Positions 33,167 through 50,391 of a stretch of DNA of 64,000 nucleotides are shown here, in pieces (within the stretch, counting starts at the first letter, position 1; the number at the start of each line of letters is the position of its first letter). Source of the DNA: Archaeoglobi archaeon. Its GTDB lineage: Archaea > Halobacteriota > Archaeoglobi > Archaeoglobales > Archaeoglobaceae. Below the pieces are notes generated by a model. It did no database searches. It was not told the origin of the DNA and saw nothing but the letters and a program-made list of their open reading frames with translations. The stretch lies in contig JAPDIW010000005.1 of NCBI GenBank assembly GCA_029259415.1, positions 13,805 to 77,804 of the forward strand. Direction: 5' to 3'. The translations under genes and the position numbers were made by a program.

Positions 33167-33456
33167 GACTCCACCTCCCACACAAGGCAGGGAACCACAG
33201 CCCCGTTCTCCTGCTTCCTCGCTGACTTCACAGCCACATACCAGCGTCCCTTCCACCACACGGGAAACTCGTCACCGAAATCGGCGGTGGCGAACTTAGG
33301 ATGCCTCTGTGGCTTGGGAAAAATGGTCCTTATGCCGGTCCCCTTCCTCCCGTACACAACGTAGTCCTCATCCTCGAAGCGGGCCTGCTGCTTGAACCTA
33401 ATCGTGGTCCTCTCCCGCTTGGGGCGGGTCGCAACTCGTCTCCGCCTGGGCAACAC
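33163..33456 (-). CDS. 97-aa basic protein
   Basis: RBS AGGAGGTGA; coupled to the next gene. Confidence 0.7.
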   Translation of the reverse strand: MLPRRRRVATRPKRERTTIRFKQQARFEDEDYVVYGRKGTGIRTIFPKPQRHPKFATADFGDEFPVWWKGRWYVAVKSARKQENGAVVPCLVWEVES

Positions 33457-33473
33457 ATCTCACCTCCTCCAAC

Positions 33474-36163: not shown

Positions 36164-36590
36164 CCTCGGCCACCTCCGATTTTACCAGCACTTCCACCCT
36201 CCTCCTCTCCTTGGCGTCGTGCAACTTCAACGCGGAGAGGAGCATCTGCATGACCGAGTATGCAACGAGGGCGTAGCCCACAACGTAGCCGTAGCCGACG
36301 TACTGGGCGTAGTCTGGAGCCACCACGAGGATCCTCTCGATGTACACGTTGGCGACGTCGCTGAGCCTCAGGATGGTCGTTCCCAGACCCAGAAAAACGA
36401 CCGAGTTGAGGAAGAACACCAGAGCTTCAAGAATCTCGGATGGGATCTCCCTTCTCTTCCCGTTTTTCTTCTCTCCGGTCTCGACGTCTTCTTCGTCGAT
36501 ATCTTCTACCTCAAAGTCATCCCAATTCTCTTCAACATCGACGTCCTCCTCATCAACCCGTCTTCGCCTGAACAACCTAATTCCTGTCAT
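36153..36590 (-). CDS. Membrane protein with acidic N-terminus and 2 TM
   Basis: D/E-rich tract followed by two hydrophobic segments. Confidence 0.75.
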   Translation of the reverse strand: MTGIRLFRRRRVDEEDVDVEENWDDFEVEDIDEEDVETGEKKNGKRREIPSEILEALVFFLNSVVFLGLGTTILRLSDVANVYIERILVVAPDYAQYVGYGYVVGYALVAYSVMQMLLSALKLHDAKERRRVEVLVKSEVAEDAS

Positions 36591-40508: not shown

Positions 40509-43333
40509 AGTACCACCCTTATCAGCGTCAGCACCAGGCTCACTACGATGAGTCCGCCTATGAGCAGTATGAACGCCCACAGAATGCTGTCTATCGCTTG
40601 GTTACCGAGAATCGGATAAGCAGTTGCGAGCTGTCCGAGAAATCCGCCGAACCCCGTGGTGGTGCCGACCTTCACGGTAATCTCGTTCTCAACAGTCTCC
40701 CCGGTGGCCGAGACTGCTGTAACGTTGTACACCCCCGCCTCGTCGAACGTGTAGCGTGCGGGATCCTTGACGAAGGTTGCAGTCTTGTTTCCGTTGATGT
40801 ACAGCTCTCCTCCCTCTGCGACGACTTTCCCGTTCTGCAGGATGGCGAACTCCACCTCGGAGCCAACTGGTAAGGCGACATCGCCGAACTGCCAGCTCTT
40901 GAACCACTCGTCTATGCTGTCCCAAGCCCAGTAGAGCCCGTAGCCCATTCCTGCTCCTATCGCGGCTCCGGGGATTGCTCCGATTCCTCCGCCGAGAATT
41001 GCTCCGATTACTGCTCCTATTCCAGCTCCAAGTCCGGTTGAACCCATCGTGTTCTCGCTGCTCTGCTCTGGCACTTTAACGAGCTTCCAGCTGAGGAGGT
41101 AGCTGTTCGGGTCGACGACCTCTATGTAGGCTATGTCCGTCAAGCCGTTGTACTCCGCCCTGAGCGTGTAGTTGCCCGGGTCAACGAAGTCGTAGTCCAG
41201 CCAGGCCCCGAAGAACCAGCCCCTCGTCTCGCCAATCATCTCCCCGTTAAGATATATCGGCACGTCAGCCAGCTCGGCTCCGTGCTCGTTCACGACGCTG
41301 ATTTTGCGTTTTCCAACCCACACAACCTGCCCGTCTGCATCGCTTCCGTCTATCCTCAGCTCTATCCTTGTTGTTGTGAGGTCTTCACCCCCATCGTCGT
41401 CCAGGTCTCCTGATGGCTTGAGGTAGACCGTAAGCTCGGTGTCAGCAGAGAACTGCCTGTCCTCAATCAGCTTGTTGCTGTAGTCTCCTGATGGGTCGGA
41501 CACATGGATGGTGTAGCTAACTCCCGAATCCACCGTCAGAACTGCTGTACCATCCTCCCTGGTCACCTTCTGCTCCACGACAGAGCCGCCCTTCAGCAGC
41601 GAGACCACCACACCCGGGATGGATTTCTCCGAGTGCTCGTCGAGAACCCTGACCGTGAGGGTGAGGCTCCCGCCGTCCTTGTCAAACTCGTCTACATCGC
41701 TGTAGACGTAAACAGTCCCAGTTCCGGTGCGGAGCACTCCTGAAGAGGTGGTTATCTCCGCATAGACCTCGTGCAACCCCACATTGTTGAAGGGATAAGT
41801 AAGTTCGGGGTCGGCATCCCCTATCCTTTCTCCATCGACAAGTATGACACTCCTCACAGCCTCCTTCTGCACCCCGTTGCAGACCTTGACTGTCTTGAAT
41901 GTGACCTTGCCCCCTACCTTGACGGACTGAGGGGAATAGATGAGCGTGTACTGGCATCCGTCCTCATCCGGCTCGGTTCTCGGGTAGTCACCGTCATCCG
42001 CTCCCCCGTTGACGTCGTAGGTCTCGTTCAGAATCGTAACGTTTGTTGCCCTGGAGAGCTCGTCACCGATTTTGGCGTAGACGTAGTGCTCACCTGCAGA
42101 GTCGACTCTGATTACCGCCTGCGGAACGTCTGGGTTAACGAGGTCGTCAAAGAAGTCGAAGAAACCCCAGTCGTCTGGGTCTTTGGTTTTAACTCCTGTT
42201 GATTGCCCGTCAACGTATATCTCAGCCCCCTCAATCCACTCTGGGTCGAGAGGATTCCACCATGCCTTCTGTGTGTTCTTGACCTTGACGATTATCGGCT
42301 CGTTGACCTTGGCTGTGTACTTGTCCAGAATGCAGATGTACTTGCTGTCGGGGTTGCCGTAATCTCCAGGCTGTTCTGGCTGCTCCTCAGGGATTTCCTC
42401 AACCGTTATCACTCCCACCTGGGTGTCGTTGTAGTAAATCTCCACGTACCTGGGAAACTCTGCTACCTCGGCAGCGAGGGAGTGCTCTGGTTCTGGTGTG
42501 CTGTACAAAACATCTCCGCTCTCGCTCTTAACCACAAACTTGAACTTCTTCCCAGACTCCTGAGACAGATAGACCCAATATGTACCCCCTAAATCTCTGA
42601 CCGAACCGTTGAAGGTCACAGAGTTCATTGAGGTGTAAACCTTGACGCTTGCGTGGTCTGGGATTGCTGGGGAGCTTCCGCTGCTTTGCGAAAGTGATAT
42701 TGATACTAAGCTGAGAGTATCCTTGACTATCGTTTTGTCGTTGTAAATATCGCCTATAAACTCACTGTACCACTGCACGATAGGTGTCCCCCAACTCGTG
42801 TACCCGACAATCCTGTACTCCTTAGCCCTTACAGTTATCGAGTCATCTGCAACTTTACTCCAGTCCACGTCAAAATAAATGTCCATCGTGCACGGTTCAA
42901 ATCCAACGTAAATCGTCGCTGTGCCGATTTGCGTTTTATCCGAACCCGTAACCACCCTTCCGTCCAACACCCAGGGCCCAGTAACATATTCTAAACTCGA
43001 TGTGCCGGCACCCAGTTCTGCCCTATAAACTTTATGTTTGCATGAGCTGGCTGGATAGATTATTTCCAGCTTGCTGATTTTTCTGCCAGCCAATCCACTT
43101 ATCGTAATCGCATTCTTCTCTACTATCCCATAATTCCAGCCTGTAAACTCTATATGCCTCTCAGTCGTTGACGAACTCGTGTTGGCCTCGAAGATTCTCT
43201 CGTAAACGTCCCCAGGGAGGTAAACCGTCTTGCTTATCTCTACAGTCGTTAGAGCGTCAACTTCTTGTGCCGACGCTGGAACTGCCGTCAGTGCAATAGC
43301 CACTATGCAAAAAAAGAGAAGAAAACGCTTCAC
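40505..43333 (-). CDS. 942-aa surface/spike-like protein with signal peptide, repeated Ig/PEGA-like domains, glycine zipper and C-terminal TM
   Basis: PASA signal cleavage; IYVDG, ILVDG, IYLNG, LYING repeats; many NxT/S sequons. Confidence 0.85.
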   Translation of the reverse strand: MKRFLLFFCIVAIALTAVPASAQEVDALTTVEISKTVYLPGDVYERIFEANTSSSTTERHIEFTGWNYGIVEKNAITISGLAGRKISKLEIIYPASSCKHKVYRAELGAGTSSLEYVTGPWVLDGRVVTGSDKTQIGTATIYVGFEPCTMDIYFDVDWSKVADDSITVRAKEYRIVGYTSWGTPIVQWYSEFIGDIYNDKTIVKDTLSLVSISLSQSSGSSPAIPDHASVKVYTSMNSVTFNGSVRDLGGTYWVYLSQESGKKFKFVVKSESGDVLYSTPEPEHSLAAEVAEFPRYVEIYYNDTQVGVITVEEIPEEQPEQPGDYGNPDSKYICILDKYTAKVNEPIIVKVKNTQKAWWNPLDPEWIEGAEIYVDGQSTGVKTKDPDDWGFFDFFDDLVNPDVPQAVIRVDSAGEHYVYAKIGDELSRATNVTILNETYDVNGGADDGDYPRTEPDEDGCQYTLIYSPQSVKVGGKVTFKTVKVCNGVQKEAVRSVILVDGERIGDADPELTYPFNNVGLHEVYAEITTSSGVLRTGTGTVYVYSDVDEFDKDGGSLTLTVRVLDEHSEKSIPGVVVSLLKGGSVVEQKVTREDGTAVLTVDSGVSYTIHVSDPSGDYSNKLIEDRQFSADTELTVYLKPSGDLDDDGGEDLTTTRIELRIDGSDADGQVVWVGKRKISVVNEHGAELADVPIYLNGEMIGETRGWFFGAWLDYDFVDPGNYTLRAEYNGLTDIAYIEVVDPNSYLLSWKLVKVPEQSSENTMGSTGLGAGIGAVIGAILGGGIGAIPGAAIGAGMGYGLYWAWDSIDEWFKSWQFGDVALPVGSEVEFAILQNGKVVAEGGELYINGNKTATFVKDPARYTFDEAGVYNVTAVSATGETVENEITVKVGTTTGFGGFLGQLATAYPILGNQAIDSILWAFILLIGGLIVVSLVLTLIRVVL

Positions 43334-43749: not shown

Positions 43750-44328
43750 TCACCTCAGTCCCTTTGCCCCCAGAACCGCTATACCGACGCCGAGCAGGAA
43801 CAGCAGCACCGGGAAGAACGCCTCCAACTCGTTGTCGTAGCTAATGGTAGCCAGCGGTGCCGCAACGCTCAGAGCAGCGAGGTTCTTGGCTTCGACGCCG
43901 TAAGCCGTTGCGCTGGCAGAAGTGAACGGGTAGACTTCGACACCGCCGATCAGCTCGATCTCCTTCCCCTTGAAGTCCTCGACCACGTAGCCGGGAATTA
44001 CCTCTTTTATCGTCTTGTCGTCGGTTATGTCGTAGATCGTGCACGTCACGCCACTGCCCGTCTTCATCGCATCGCAACCCTTAACCCAGTCCGGACTGAT
44101 CGAGAAGTAGCTCGGCTTGATAACTATCCTCGCCGAGATCGGATAGGACGTCTTCGGGTCCAGCTTGATCGTCACGTAGTTGAGGTCGTTGACCTCTACC
44201 GGGTCGCTCTGCGTTACGGTTACCGAAAGGGCCGTGTTGCTCTGCGTCACCACTCCAGCACTCGCCGGAACCGCAGCCGCAACGACCAGCACAACCAGCA
44301 CTCCCAAAATCCAACCGGTCTTCACCAA
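43750..44328 (-). CDS. Signal peptide plus C-terminal TM protein, candidate major envelope protein
   Basis: VPASA cleavage site; second gene of the operon; strong RBS GAGGTGA. Confidence 0.8.
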   Translation of the reverse strand: MVKTGWILGVLVVLVVAAAVPASAGVVTQSNTALSVTVTQSDPVEVNDLNYVTIKLDPKTSYPISARIVIKPSYFSISPDWVKGCDAMKTGSGVTCTIYDITDDKTIKEVIPGYVVEDFKGKEIELIGGVEVYPFTSASATAYGVEAKNLAALSVAAPLATISYDNELEAFFPVLLFLLGVGIAVLGAKGLR

Positions 44329-44334
44329 ACAACA

Positions 44335-44523
44335 TCACCTCGCCTTCTTTTTCTTCCTACCTCCACTATTCCCCTTCCTACCTCCTCCACTCTTCCCTTT
44401 CCTCTTCCTCCGCTTCCTGAGTTCGCTCATCGGCACCTCAACTACCTGCATGGTGCCTCCGGGCCCCTTCTTGAAGTGGTAGCCCATCCCCTTCTTCTTC
44501 CTAAACTGCGCGACCACTCCCAA
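44335..44523 (-). CDS. 62-aa highly basic protein, candidate nucleoprotein
   Basis: K/R/G-rich; TTG start after GAGGTGA. Confidence 0.7.
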   Translation of the reverse strand: MGVVAQFRKKKGMGYHFKKGPGGTMQVVEVPMSELRKRRKRKGKSGGGRKGNSGGRKKKKAR

Positions 44524-44547
44524 CCGGTCTCACCTCTGCAACTTTTC

Positions 44548-44652
44548 CGGGCCGGGGGATGGTGGCGGCGGGGTAGCTAACCGAAAAAACAAAAAAGTCC
44601 AACCCGTCTCCGCAAGGCAACCAGTCTCGCATGCTATCCCCGGCCCGTTTCA
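44548..44652 (-). ncRNA. Structured 5' leader of the structural operon with an internal U-tract
   Basis: CGGGCCGGGGAT...ATCCCCCGGCCCG closing stem; TTTTTTGTTTTTT inside; TATA at 44675-44682. Confidence 0.55.
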
Positions 44653-44674
44653 GTAAATAATGTGATAAAAGGAG

Positions 44675-44906
44675 TATATAAAATATGTAACTTTGTCCCC
44701 TATTTTTTGATGATGATTAATCCTGCCCTTGTGTCCACATCTATCTCCAAATAGTCTCCTTCACTCCATCCTAAGAGCTTCAAAACCGCGCTCGGTATAG
44801 TTACGCTTAGACTGTTTCCGGTCCGTTTCAACTTTACTTTTAATTTGTTAGCACTCATGTTTTACTTTTGTTCTAACGAGTATAAGAACAGTAAAGCTTT
44901 GTCCCC
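44675..44906 (-). promoter_or_regulatory. Two promoters sharing GGGGACAAAG-N8-TATA
   Basis: Motif at 44691-44700 and 44897-44906, each 8 nt from TTTATATA or TTCTTATA. Confidence 0.7.
44700..44858 (-). CDS. AbrB/MazE/SpoVT-like regulator, 52 aa (missing from ORF track)
   Basis: MSANKLKVKLKRTGNSLSVTIPSAVLKLLGWSEGDYLEIDVDTRAGLIIIKK. Confidence 0.88.
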   Translation of the reverse strand: MSANKLKVKLKRTGNSLSVTIPSAVLKLLGWSEGDYLEIDVDTRAGLIIIKK

Positions 44907-45262
44907 GAAAAATTTAAGCCGTGCACCTAACTCATGACTTTATGCACGGTCCGGGCCCTCTTATTTCGAGTTCTAATCCCTCTCGTAACTTTCAGCACGG
45001 CATCGAATTTTATAAACCCTTCGTTTAGTTTTTTCTGACTGATGTTTGGTTATAGCAAAGCGAGATTGTTTGTGATGTAGAGGCCGTCAGAAGGGAGATT
45101 GAGAGCACTGAAGAGCTACAAAACTTCACCAATTACCAGAAATTGCAGTGGAGAAGGGACCAGTATGAAAAACGAAGATTTTAGAATGAATAAACATGCT
45201 AATTAACTTTTCGATAATTCTTTTTCAGTAAATAATTTAAAATAGAAGCTGCATTATCAAAC

Positions 45263-50308: not shown

Positions 50309-50391
50309 TGCGGGGGGAGGGATTCGAACCCTCGAACCCCTACGGGACAGGACCCTCAATCCTGCGCCTTTGTCCGCTCGGCAACCCCCGC
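50309..50391 (-). tRNA. tRNA-Leu (anticodon GAG)
   Basis: GCGGGGG acceptor, long variable arm, GGTTCGAATCC T-arm, anticodon loop TTGAGGG. Confidence 0.95.

What the first reader, a model, noticed from the sequence alone, without database searches (positions are those of the whole stretch)
44548..44652. Structured leader with an internal U-tract ahead of the whole structural operon (attenuator or sRNA)
Seen: a TATA box at 44675-44682 puts the start near 44652, immediately before a GC-rich 10+2-bp closing stem that encloses UUUUUUGUUUUUU and ends about 10 nt before the first RBS. Known: oligo-U tracts terminate archaeal transcription. Inference: default termination yields an approximately 70-nt RNA and read-through needs a factor, or the fold is a packaging or translation signal. 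The first gene downstream is the basic nucleic-acid-binding candidate, which could provide feedback.
Basis: partly seen in the sequence, partly recalled or inferred. Interest (0 to 1): 0.65.

Follow-up and report, generated by a model that had tools for sequence, protein, structure and literature searches.

The report
Structured leader RNA of archaeal element operon
This is a real, conserved leader of about 115 bases in front of the structural genes of a virus-like element integrated in an Archaeoglobus genome: a G+C-rich helix clamps its two ends, and most relatives carry a uridine run of the kind that stops archaeal transcription, so it probably throttles and stabilises the operon's messenger RNA, though no RNA data could be obtained.

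Summary
On the minus strand a TATA box (44683-44675) is followed about 28 nt later by CGGGCCGGGG(AU) (44647-44636). This pairs with (AU)cCCCCGGCCCG (44560-48), encloses U6GU6 (44596-84) and ends 11 nt before the SD GAGGUGA and the TTG start of the 62-aa gene.

It is not chance. I collected 22 distinct related operon starts from Archaeoglobi genomes and vent metagenomes. In close relatives the leader is the best-conserved segment (89-94% identity against 71-84% for the flanking genes). The closing helix holds in 10 sequences: 94.6% of cells pair, all other changes are G.U-compatible, and three pairs changed on both sides.

A run of at least six U occurs in 15 of 19 structured leaders. In two leader types it follows a G+C hairpin. 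Two type I leaders (L072, L024) and both type V leaders lack the run, although type I keeps the helix. In one further type the U-tract block lies upstream of the TATA box, as an ordinary terminator.

Best reading (about 0.42): a cis-acting 5' UTR combining a partial premature terminator with a 5'-end clamp. No Rfam family matches. Feedback by the 62-aa protein has no support.

The parts
44691..44700 (-). Upstream promoter element GGGGACAAAG, 8 nt before the TATA box. It is repeated before the AbrB gene at 44897-44906.
   Evidence: repeat D13. The same GGGGACAAA / GGACACAAA element precedes the operon TATA in L024, L023, G009/L065 and L072.
44675..44683 (-). TATA box TTTTATATA of the operon promoter. 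The predicted start is near 44652-44650.
   Evidence: A TTTAWATA box sits at the same distance (about 26-31 nt) from the first paired base in all 16 full leaders. The start site is inferred, not measured.
44636..44647 (-). Helix A, 5' arm: CGGGCCGGGG + AU
   Evidence: Covariation count.
44548..44560 (-). Helix A, 3' arm: AU-c-CCCCGGCCCG. Together with CACC (44564-44561) it forms a C-rich stretch, CACCAUCC, that resembles the anti-SD.
   Evidence: The SD becomes less accessible in most homologs when the 5' arm is blocked in silico, but not in the window itself.
44612..44634 (-). Hairpin 1 (GCA-u-GCGA [GACUGG] UUGC-cu-UGC). It holds motif copy 1 in its loop and the ATG at 44632-44630.
   Evidence: 100% of cells pair in the five type I sequences, with two G.U changes.
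44599..44626 (-). Two copies of GAGACNGGUUG (44626-44617 and 44608-44599), 18 nt apart.
   Evidence: They are paralogous to the start region of the 97-aa gene at 33466-33420.
44584..44596 (-). Double oligo-U tract U6-G-U6, the candidate premature terminator.
   Evidence: It is the first T5+ run after the AbrB stop codon. The double-U-tract signature is described in PMC8716108.
44570..44577 (-). Helix B 3' strand GCUACCCC, an alternative proximal partner for GGGGAUAGC (44641-44633).
   Evidence: It is a perfect 9 bp in L020, L023 and L060. In G009/L065, which lack helix A, the equivalent GGGGUAU/AUACCC closes the leader.
44521..44548 (-). Open translation start region: GGAAAAG, SD GAGGUGA (44536-44530), spacer GACCGG and TTG start (44523-44521). 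It includes motif copy 3.
   Evidence: GAAAAG-SD is conserved in every leader type.
44335..44523 (-). First gene of the operon: a 62-aa K/R/G-rich protein.
   Evidence: The reading frame from the TTG is kept by an in-frame 3-nt indel in G003 and in G015.
44700..44858 (-). Upstream AbrB/SpoVT (MazE-type) 52-aa gene on the same strand. Its transcripts would run into the leader.
   Evidence: PF04014, E = 7e-12.

Best explanation
The stretch is the 5' untranslated leader of the messenger RNA for the structural operon of a virus-like mobile element integrated in an Archaeoglobus genome. The operon runs from the 62-aa basic protein through the 192-aa and 131-aa proteins and the 942-aa spike-like protein to the subtilase and the HerA-type ATPase.

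Transcription starts about 25 nt after the TATA box, roughly 4-5 nt before the 5' arm. About 55-68 nt later the polymerase meets U6GU6, the archaeal termination signal. A share of polymerases stops there. This includes any that read in from the AbrB gene just upstream. The result would be a short RNA of about 60-70 nt, lower operon expression and insulation of the operon. That is a constitutive or factor-tunable attenuator, like an internal operon terminator.

Polymerases that pass then transcribe the 3' arm. The 10+2-bp G+C helix closes, tying the 5' end of the mRNA to the stretch just before the ribosome-binding site. This buries the 5' end, giving protection at about 80 C. It also occupies the C-rich strand that resembles the anti-SD, so that GAAAAG-SD-UUG stays open for ribosomes.

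Shown: the sequence features, their conservation, covariation in the helix, and recurrence of the U run. Inferred: the start site, termination, stabilisation and the effect on translation.
For: 1. Constraint. The leader is 89-94% identical to L020, L023, L026 and L060, against 75-81% (98% in L060) for the promoter and 71-84% for the two following genes.

2. Restricted distribution. A covariance model finds it in only 4 of 96 Archaeoglobi genomes, always at this operon.

3. Helix A is an RNA helix on the sense strand. In 10 sequences 94.6% of cells pair, against 32-53% for slid controls. Three pairs changed on both sides (18 of 500 shuffles reach this). By hand, L072 has C-G to U-A and A-U to G-C. 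L060 has a paired one-base deletion in both arms. L020, L023, L024 and L068 have only C-to-U changes that give G.U pairs. In G004 the 3' arm is absent, and there the 5' arm carries a helix-breaking C-to-G change.

4. In all types the 5' arm begins within about 0-5 nt of the start predicted from the TATA box.

5. A U6+ run is present in 15 of 19 distinct structured leaders (types I, II and III). In type II it follows a G+C hairpin whose stem shows a double change and paired insertions. In type III it follows an 11-bp hairpin.

6. In the short-leader type IV (L061, L064) the homologous U-tract and C-rich block lies between the preceding gene's stop codon and the TATA box, which is the position of a plain terminator.

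7. In this genome T6+ runs are three-fold depleted on the sense strand of ORFs. Double T-tracts sit mostly just 3' of ORFs (33 of 96, against 7 inside sense ORFs). Two or more U4 tracts give the highest termination efficacy in M. maripaludis (PMC8716108). Partial internal terminators tune archaeal operons (PMC10450193).

8. There is no T5+ run between the AbrB stop codon and this tract.
Against: - The start site, the 3' end and the read-through fraction are all unmeasured.
- The U-tract is dispensable in L072 and L024, which keep helix A, and it has decayed in type V.
- A T7 run is tolerated inside the 942-aa gene (43315-43309), so oligo-T does not always stop expression here.
- Helix A forms only after the polymerase has passed the tract, so it cannot decide termination.
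- Overall folding energies are ordinary (z between -1.6 and -0.07).
- The predicted effect of the clamp on SD accessibility is absent in the window's own sequence.
- A full-length aCPSF1/FttA was not found above the cut-off in this draft assembly.
- The U-rich stretch may be a remnant of hydrophobic codons of an earlier small ORF.
Confidence: 0.42

Rival explanations
1. Clamp only. The leader is an mRNA stabiliser and translation-competence element. The 5'-terminal G+C helix protects the 5' end from 5'-3' decay at high temperature and keeps the C-rich, anti-SD-like strand away from the SD. The U-tract is an incidental relic with little effect.
For: Helix A is the feature with covariation, and it is kept where the U-tract is lost (L072, L024). 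The 5' arm starts at the predicted 5' end in all types. Blocking the 5' arm in silico lowers SD accessibility in L060, L072, L021, L062, L024 and L023. The U-rich stretch aligns with a hydrophobic-coding start of the form MRRRVGLF....
Against: The U run is kept in 15 of 19 leaders and across three leader types with different surroundings. In types II and III it has a classic hairpin-plus-U shape. The lineage G009/L065 lacks helix A but keeps U7GU7. The accessibility effect is absent in the window, G009, L029 and L022.
Confidence: 0.24
2. Binding platform. The repeated GAGACNGGTTG motif occurs twice in the leader, once at the SD-start of gene 1 and once in the 5' end of gene 2. It would be the site of a sequence-specific factor (an AbrB-type regulator on DNA, or an RNA-binding protein), or the copies would pair with each other as RNA. 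Either way initiation at the UUG would be gated, giving feedback or late timing.
For: Three exact and one near-exact copies lie within 316 nt. Only 6 matches to GA[GA]ACNGGTTGG exist in the 1.94-Mb genome. The motif is kept in every leader type, including two perfect tandem copies in type V. In gene 2 it is kept in two different reading frames. Copy 1 is displayed as the loop of hairpin 1. As RNA, GACYGGUU is self-complementary when G.U pairs are allowed (read directly from the sequence).
Against: The copies can be explained as duplicated gene starts that code (K/R)RRVG. No partner protein was identified. Spacings of 18, 79 and 209 nt fit no simple operator geometry. The G/U-rich pairing is permissive and shows no covariation. 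Type III operons lack the basic protein gene.
Confidence: 0.12
3. Leader-peptide control. The ATG at 44632 opens a short ORF (43 codons here) that runs across the U-tract. A ribosome translating it would shield the tract from termination and deliver ribosomes to the gene 1 start.
For: In G004 the same ATG, behind the same promoter and GGGGAUAGC, is the start of a real 136-aa gene. An ORF from this ATG crosses the central region in all type I leaders, including the U-tract wherever one is present.
Against: The frame is not conserved after the tract between the window, L020, G009 and L024. Among the first 12 codons there are 7 non-synonymous and 3 synonymous changes, which is about neutral. The ATG and its SD-like GGGG are buried in hairpin 1 and in helix A or B. 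Type II and type III uORFs stop before the U-tract.
Confidence: 0.08
4. Stand-alone small RNA. The functional product would be either the terminated RNA of about 60-70 nt or the excised domain of about 100 nt. It could be bound by the host's Sm-like proteins through the U-tract and act in trans.
For: Types II and III would give RNAs ending in a hairpin plus U-tail. Two Sm-like proteins are encoded in the genome. Archaeoglobus SmAPs bind U-rich RNA (PMC3710371). Several tracts read like Sm sites, for example AUUUUUUGG in L022.
Against: No target complementarity was found. The element always sits directly in front of the operon, one copy per element. The short type I RNA has no stable fold at 78 C.
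Confidence: 0.07
5. Non-functional relic. The leader would be a pseudogenised gene start caught between a mobile promoter module and the operon, kept similar only by recent recombination.
For: The 5' half is paralogous to the start region of the 97-aa gene. Mosaic breakpoints fall inside or next to the leader in G004 and L060.
Against: The leader is a local conservation peak even where both flanks have diverged: in L023 it is 89%, against 62-79% around it. Helix A has compensatory changes. The architecture is kept across deeply diverged types.
Confidence: 0.05

Closest known systems
Archaeal oligo-U terminators, including internal operon terminators (ioTTS) and aCPSF1/FttA-assisted termination (Methanococcus maripaludis; PMC8716108, PMC10450193)
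   Same: There are two U tracts of at least 4 residues within 13 nt on the sense strand. Partial termination would set the level of downstream genes. In this genome such tracts cluster just 3' of ORFs.
   Different: The tract lies inside a 5' UTR about 60 nt from the promoter and is enclosed by a conserved long-range helix. No 3'-end data exist. A full-length aCPSF1 was not detected above the cut-off in this draft.
Bacterial 5'-leader attenuators and riboswitch expression platforms (intrinsic terminator in the leader, alternative pairings)
   Same: Types II and III carry a G+C hairpin directly followed by U6 in the leader. The 5' arm has two mutually exclusive partners: the proximal helix B or A' and the distal helix A.
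   Different: No ligand domain or Rfam family matches. Type I has no hairpin before the tract. The alternative helices do not overlap the terminator, so no antiterminator logic is evident. Archaeal polymerase does not need a hairpin (PMC8716108).
Phage lambda late operon: PR' promoter, tR' terminator, short 6S RNA and Q antitermination (own knowledge)
   Same: A terminator-like signal lies a short distance downstream of the promoter that drives the structural genes of a mobile element. By default this would give a short RNA.
   Different: No antiterminator candidate or loading site was identified. Relatives without the tract exist. This is an analogy only.
5'-terminal stabiliser stem-loops of bacterial mRNAs, such as the ompA 5' UTR (own knowledge)
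   Same: The helix starts within a few nucleotides of the predicted 5' end, and the SD is left open downstream.
   Different: Here the helix is long-range, closing a domain of about 90 nt rather than a local hairpin. The archaeal decay machinery differs. The 5' end is inferred, not mapped.

Membership tests
Any Rfam family (riboswitch, leader, sRNA, tRNA-like) | Match to a curated covariance model | tested here: not met
   At gathering thresholds the scan of the window finds only tRNA-Leu at 50309-50391. A permissive scan of 44300-44950 gives one chance hit with E = 8.6.
Archaeal oligo-U (aCPSF1-assisted) terminator | Two or more U4+ tracts within about 30 nt on the transcribed strand | tested here: met
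   U6GU6 at 44596-44584. The criterion is taken from PMC8716108.
Archaeal oligo-U (aCPSF1-assisted) terminator | Transcript 3' ends at or just after the tract | not testable with these tools
Archaeal oligo-U (aCPSF1-assisted) terminator | Host encodes aCPSF1/FttA with KH domains | tested here: inconclusive
   The best TIGR03675 match covers only model positions 168-628, scores 284 bits against a cut-off of 580, and contains one TAG. The assembly is a draft of 104 contigs.
Bacterial-type attenuator (intrinsic terminator plus competing antiterminator) | G+C hairpin immediately followed by a U run in the leader | tested here: not met
   There is no stable hairpin before the tract in the window or other type I leaders. 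The feature is met only in relatives of types II and III.
Bacterial-type attenuator (intrinsic terminator plus competing antiterminator) | Alternative pairing that overlaps and disrupts the terminator | tested here: not met
   The alternative partners of the 5' arm (helix B or A' against helix A) do not involve the tract or its hairpin.
Leader-peptide attenuation | Conserved translated uORF spanning the control region | tested here: not met
   The frame is not conserved beyond the tract, the ratio of non-synonymous to synonymous changes is 7:3, and type II and III uORFs end before the tract.
5'-terminal stabiliser helix | Helix begins within a few nt of the mRNA 5' end and is evolutionarily maintained | tested here: inconclusive
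   Maintenance is shown. The 5' end is inferred only from TATA spacing.
tRNA-derived attachment site (att) of an integrated element | Lies at the element-host junction and matches a tRNA gene end | tested here: not met
   ARAGORN finds no tRNA here. In L023 the tRNA end lies upstream of the AbrB gene, about 350 nt from the leader. The leader is internal to the element.
C/D-box sRNA, K-turn or BHB processing stem | C/D boxes (RUGAUGA, CUGA), or 3-nt bulges 4 bp apart in the closing helix | tested here: not met
   Read directly from the sequence: there are no boxes, and the helix has only a single bulged C.

The most novel reading that the evidence does not exclude
The leader is a conditional terminator switch for the late (structural) genes of an archaeal virus-like element. 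By default transcripts end at the U-tract as a short RNA. An element-encoded factor, or the competition between the two partners of the 5' arm, allows read-through. That would be an archaeal counterpart of phage late-gene antitermination and the first transcription attenuator described in an archaeal mobile element.
Probability: 0.12. Interest if true: 0.8.

Novelty: new variant of a known kind. Interest (0 to 1): 0.5.

Why it matters
Cis-acting RNA control of transcription or mRNA fate is barely documented in Archaea beyond a few riboswitches. To my knowledge it has not been described for archaeal viruses or plasmids. This leader comes with several natural variants: with and without the U-tract, with and without the outer helix, and with the terminator block on either side of the promoter. 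Together they form a ready-made mutational series for testing oligo-U termination, read-through and 5'-end protection at about 80 C. It would also show how a hyperthermophilic mobile element times or doses its structural genes.

Tried and rejected
- tRNA, att site or a known RNA family: rejected.
- Phage database similarity: none.
- IMG/VR by protein and by DNA pattern: no relatives. The 28 pattern hits are chance matches by the covariance model.
- The G044 BLAST hit to the U-tract region lies in a coding region and is chance.
- The 12-mer pattern for the 5' arm across 96 genomes was no better than its reversed control and hit mostly coding sequence.
- The 43-aa ORF as a protein: rejected because frame is not conserved.
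- Thermodynamic significance: weak, so not used as evidence.
- U-tract purely as the terminator of a co-directional upstream gene: not sufficient. L021 and L022 have divergent upstream genes and still carry the tract.
- Pairing of the U-tract with the conserved GAAAAG and SD, predicted by RNAalifold for type II: only invariant or U-permissive pairs, so it remains a possibility.

Full report
**Observation**

On the minus strand the sequence reads: TTTTATATA (44683-44675), 27 nt, CGGGCCGGGGAU (44647-36), AGCAUGCGAGACUGGUUGCCUUGCGGAGACGGGUUGGAC, U6GU6 (44596-84), CGGUUAGCUACCCCGCCGCCACC, AUcCCCCGGCCCG (44560-48), GAAAAGUUGCA, GAGGUGA (44536-30), GACCGG, UUG (44523).

RNAfold recovers the 10-bp closing helix at 37 C, and the helix is the main survivor at 78 C. 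It is the only local inverted repeat of at least 9 bp in the 64-kb window with at least 8 of 9 G+C; 0.23 are expected. The overall folding energy is ordinary (z about -2 to -1.6). Whether it means anything had to come from comparison with relatives.

**Context**

- The region 31-45 kb is richer in G+C than its flanks.
- It carries one co-directional gene set: a 62-aa K/R/G-rich protein, 192-aa and 131-aa secreted or membrane proteins, a 942-aa spike-like protein, an S8 subtilase and a HerA-type ATPase.
- Directly upstream on the same strand is a 52-aa AbrB/MazE-type gene with its own promoter.
- Relatives are labelled Archaeoglobus sp. MAGs. G003 is in the same genus as the window's genome.
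- In L023 a tRNA gene end lies just upstream of the AbrB gene. The leader is therefore internal to an integrated element and is not an att site. ARAGORN and Rfam find nothing here.

**Relatives**

I recovered 22 distinct homologous operon starts by several routes:
- DNA and pattern searches of 96 Archaeoglobi genomes;
- protein-guided scans of genome and metagenome contigs;
- look-ups of 12 homologs of the 192-aa protein.

They fall into these types:

| Type | Members | Features |
|---|---|---|
| Ia | window, L060, L026, L020, L023 | Helix A, helix B, U6-7GU6-7 |
| Ib | G009, L065 | No helix A; closed by GGGGUAU/AUACCC; U6-7GU7 |
| Ic | L024 | Helix A; large insert; no U6 |
| Id | L072 | Helix A; no U6 |
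| II | L021, L029, L062, L068, L070, partial L028 | Helix A; G+C hairpin directly followed by U6 |
| III | L022, L079 | Different 5' stem; 11-bp hairpin followed by U6-7 |
| V | L074, L076 | Hairpin; U run decayed |
| IV | L027, L061, L064 | Short leader |

A covariance model built from type I finds type II at E of about 1e-4. It hits only 4 of 96 Archaeoglobi genomes, always at this operon. Nothing similar is in IMG/VR.

**Constraint**

Against L020, L023 and L026 the leader is 89-94% identical. The promoter is 75-81% identical and the next two genes 71-82%. In L023 the leader is a clear local peak: AbrB 62%, promoter 75%, leader 89%, basic gene 79%, gene 2 72%.

L060 and G004 share the window's AbrB-promoter module at 98-99% and then diverge. 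G004 switches at GCATGC, 23 nt into the leader, to a different 136-aa membrane-protein gene that uses the leader's ATG as its start. The leader is thus also a mosaic junction.

**Helix A**

On a model-guided alignment of 10 full leaders, 94.6% of cells pair, against 32-53% when the partner strand is slid. Three pairs show changes on both sides (18 of 500 shuffles reach this). By eye:
- L072 has C-G to U-A, with the U.G intermediate present in L060, and A-U to G-C.
- L060 lost one G from the 5' arm and the matching C's from the 3' arm.
- L062 extends the helix by three pairs through changes in both arms.
- The other changes (L020, L023, L024, L068/L070) are C-to-U, giving G.U.
- L029 loses one terminal pair.

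G.U pairs would be A.C on the other strand. The helix is therefore an RNA helix of the sense transcript, not a DNA palindrome or an antisense RNA. In G004 the 3' arm is gone, and there the 5' arm carries a C-to-G change that would break the helix.

In every type a G+C stem begins 0-5 nt after the start predicted from the TATA box.

Type I also has a proximal alternative partner for GGGGAUAGC (helix B, GCUA(U)CCCC). Type II has an analogous proximal partner, CCCUGGU. Two mutually exclusive closures are therefore possible.

**The U-tract**

- A run of at least six U is present in 15 of 19 distinct structured leaders. It is always on the sense strand, 36-47 nt before the SD.
- In type II it follows a hairpin whose stem varies with compensation. 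GGCCC/GGGCC becomes GCCCCUC/GAGGGGC, and one pair changes G-C to C-G.
- In type III it follows an 11-bp perfect stem.
- In type IV a block with the same words (CTTTTTTGTTAG, TATCCCTGCC, CCATCCC...CCGGCC) lies between the stop codon of the preceding gene and the TATA box, where a terminator is expected.
- In this genome T6+ runs are three times rarer on the sense than on the antisense strand of long ORFs.
- Of 96 double T-tracts, 33 lie within 150 nt after a co-directional ORF, many of them within 10 nt. Only 7 lie inside ORFs in sense.
- Published Term-seq and binding work shows that two or more U4 tracts give the highest termination efficacy and are the minimal aCPSF1 site (PMC8716108). Partial internal terminators tune archaeal operons (PMC10450193).
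- There is no T5+ run between the AbrB stop codon (44700) and this tract. It is therefore also the first stop signal for AbrB transcripts.

Against this:
- L072 and L024 keep the helix but have no U6.
- A T7 run is tolerated in the 942-aa gene.
- A full-length aCPSF1 was not detected above the cut-off in this draft.

**Other content**

GA(G/A)ACNGGTTG occurs four times within 44311-44626. Only six matches to GA[GA]ACNGGTTGG exist in the whole genome. It occurs in all leader types, and in gene 2 in two reading frames.

The leader's 5' half (UUGCCuuGCGGAGACGGGUUGGAC) is paralogous to the SD-start and first codons (MLPRRRRV) of the 97-aa gene at 33466-33420. Read in another frame it gives MRRRVGLFCFFG*. 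L024 still has a 36-codon ORF here. The leader probably arose from a duplicated gene start, and the U run may descend from hydrophobic codons.

The ORF from ATG 44632 is not frame-conserved and shows about neutral substitution (7 non-synonymous, 3 synonymous), so a conserved peptide is unlikely.

The strand around the 3' arm (CACCAUCC, CCUC, CUCC) resembles the anti-SD. Blocking the 5' arm in silico lowers SD accessibility in six relatives but not in the window.

Two Sm-like proteins are encoded. Archaeoglobus SmAPs bind U-rich RNA.

**Verdict**

This is a real, conserved, element-specific 5' leader RNA. The best-supported mechanism is a composite. The internal oligo-U signal prematurely ends a share of transcripts, both the operon's own and those reading in from upstream. 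The terminal clamp helix forms on read-through transcripts, protects the 5' end and keeps the ribosome site open.

I give this 0.42. The main rival is a clamp-only stabiliser with an incidental U run (0.24). Lesser rivals are a factor or RNA-pairing platform built on the repeated motif (0.12), leader-peptide coupling (0.08), a stand-alone small RNA (0.07) and a relic (0.05).

Feedback by the 62-aa protein and a packaging role have no support.

Noticed in passing
L003 (G004:C12) minus strand, about 1530-1100: A congeneric genome carries the same AbrB gene, promoter and first 23 nt of the leader at 98% identity. At GCATGC it switches to an unrelated 136-aa membrane-protein gene that starts at the leader's ATG. 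This is a mosaic breakpoint inside the leader.
   Followed up: partly
window 44691-44700 and 44897-44906 (-); L024 838-847; L023 about 370-380: The element GGGGACAAAG / GGACACAAA, about 8 nt upstream of the TATA box, is kept in front of both the AbrB promoter and the operon promoter in several diverged relatives. It is absent where an integrase gene replaces AbrB (L020). It is a likely operator of the AbrB-type regulator.
   Followed up: partly
window 44311-44626 (-), 33420-33466 (-), 36553-36562 (-): The motif GAGACNGGTTG recurs at or just after the starts of several genes of the element. It often codes RRRV or KRRVG, but in gene 2 it is kept in two reading frames. As RNA, GACYGGUU is self-complementary when G.U pairs are allowed.
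   Followed up: partly
L061 about 1385-1445; L064 about 1375-1445: In short-leader relatives the block homologous to the leader's U-tract and C-rich 3' half lies upstream of the TATA box, directly after the stop codon of a preceding 54-aa gene. The promoter and the terminator block have swapped order between lineages.
   Followed up: partly
L055, L057, L058, L059 (genomes G053, G058, G059, G061), around position 1500: In other genera of the family, a promoter-proximal perfect hairpin (GGTGACGGCGGGGGTAGC...GCTATCTCCGCCGTCAC) sits between two TATA boxes ahead of a gene. It shares the arm sequence of helix B.
   Followed up: no
window 43309-43315 (-): A T7 run on the sense strand lies inside the signal-peptide codons of the 942-aa spike-like gene. 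It may be an internal partial terminator within the operon.
   Followed up: no
G000:C19:7317-8549 (-): The best aCPSF1 (TIGR03675) match in the window's genome lacks the N-terminal KH part, contains one TAG and scores well below the cut-off. Either the true ortholog is missing from this 104-contig draft or only an aCPSF2-like paralog was seen.
   Followed up: no
L024 1038-1277: One relative has an extra 79-aa basic zinc-ribbon-like gene (CxxC...CxxC) inserted between the leader and the basic-protein gene. It uses the conserved SD-GACCGG-TTG start.
   Followed up: no
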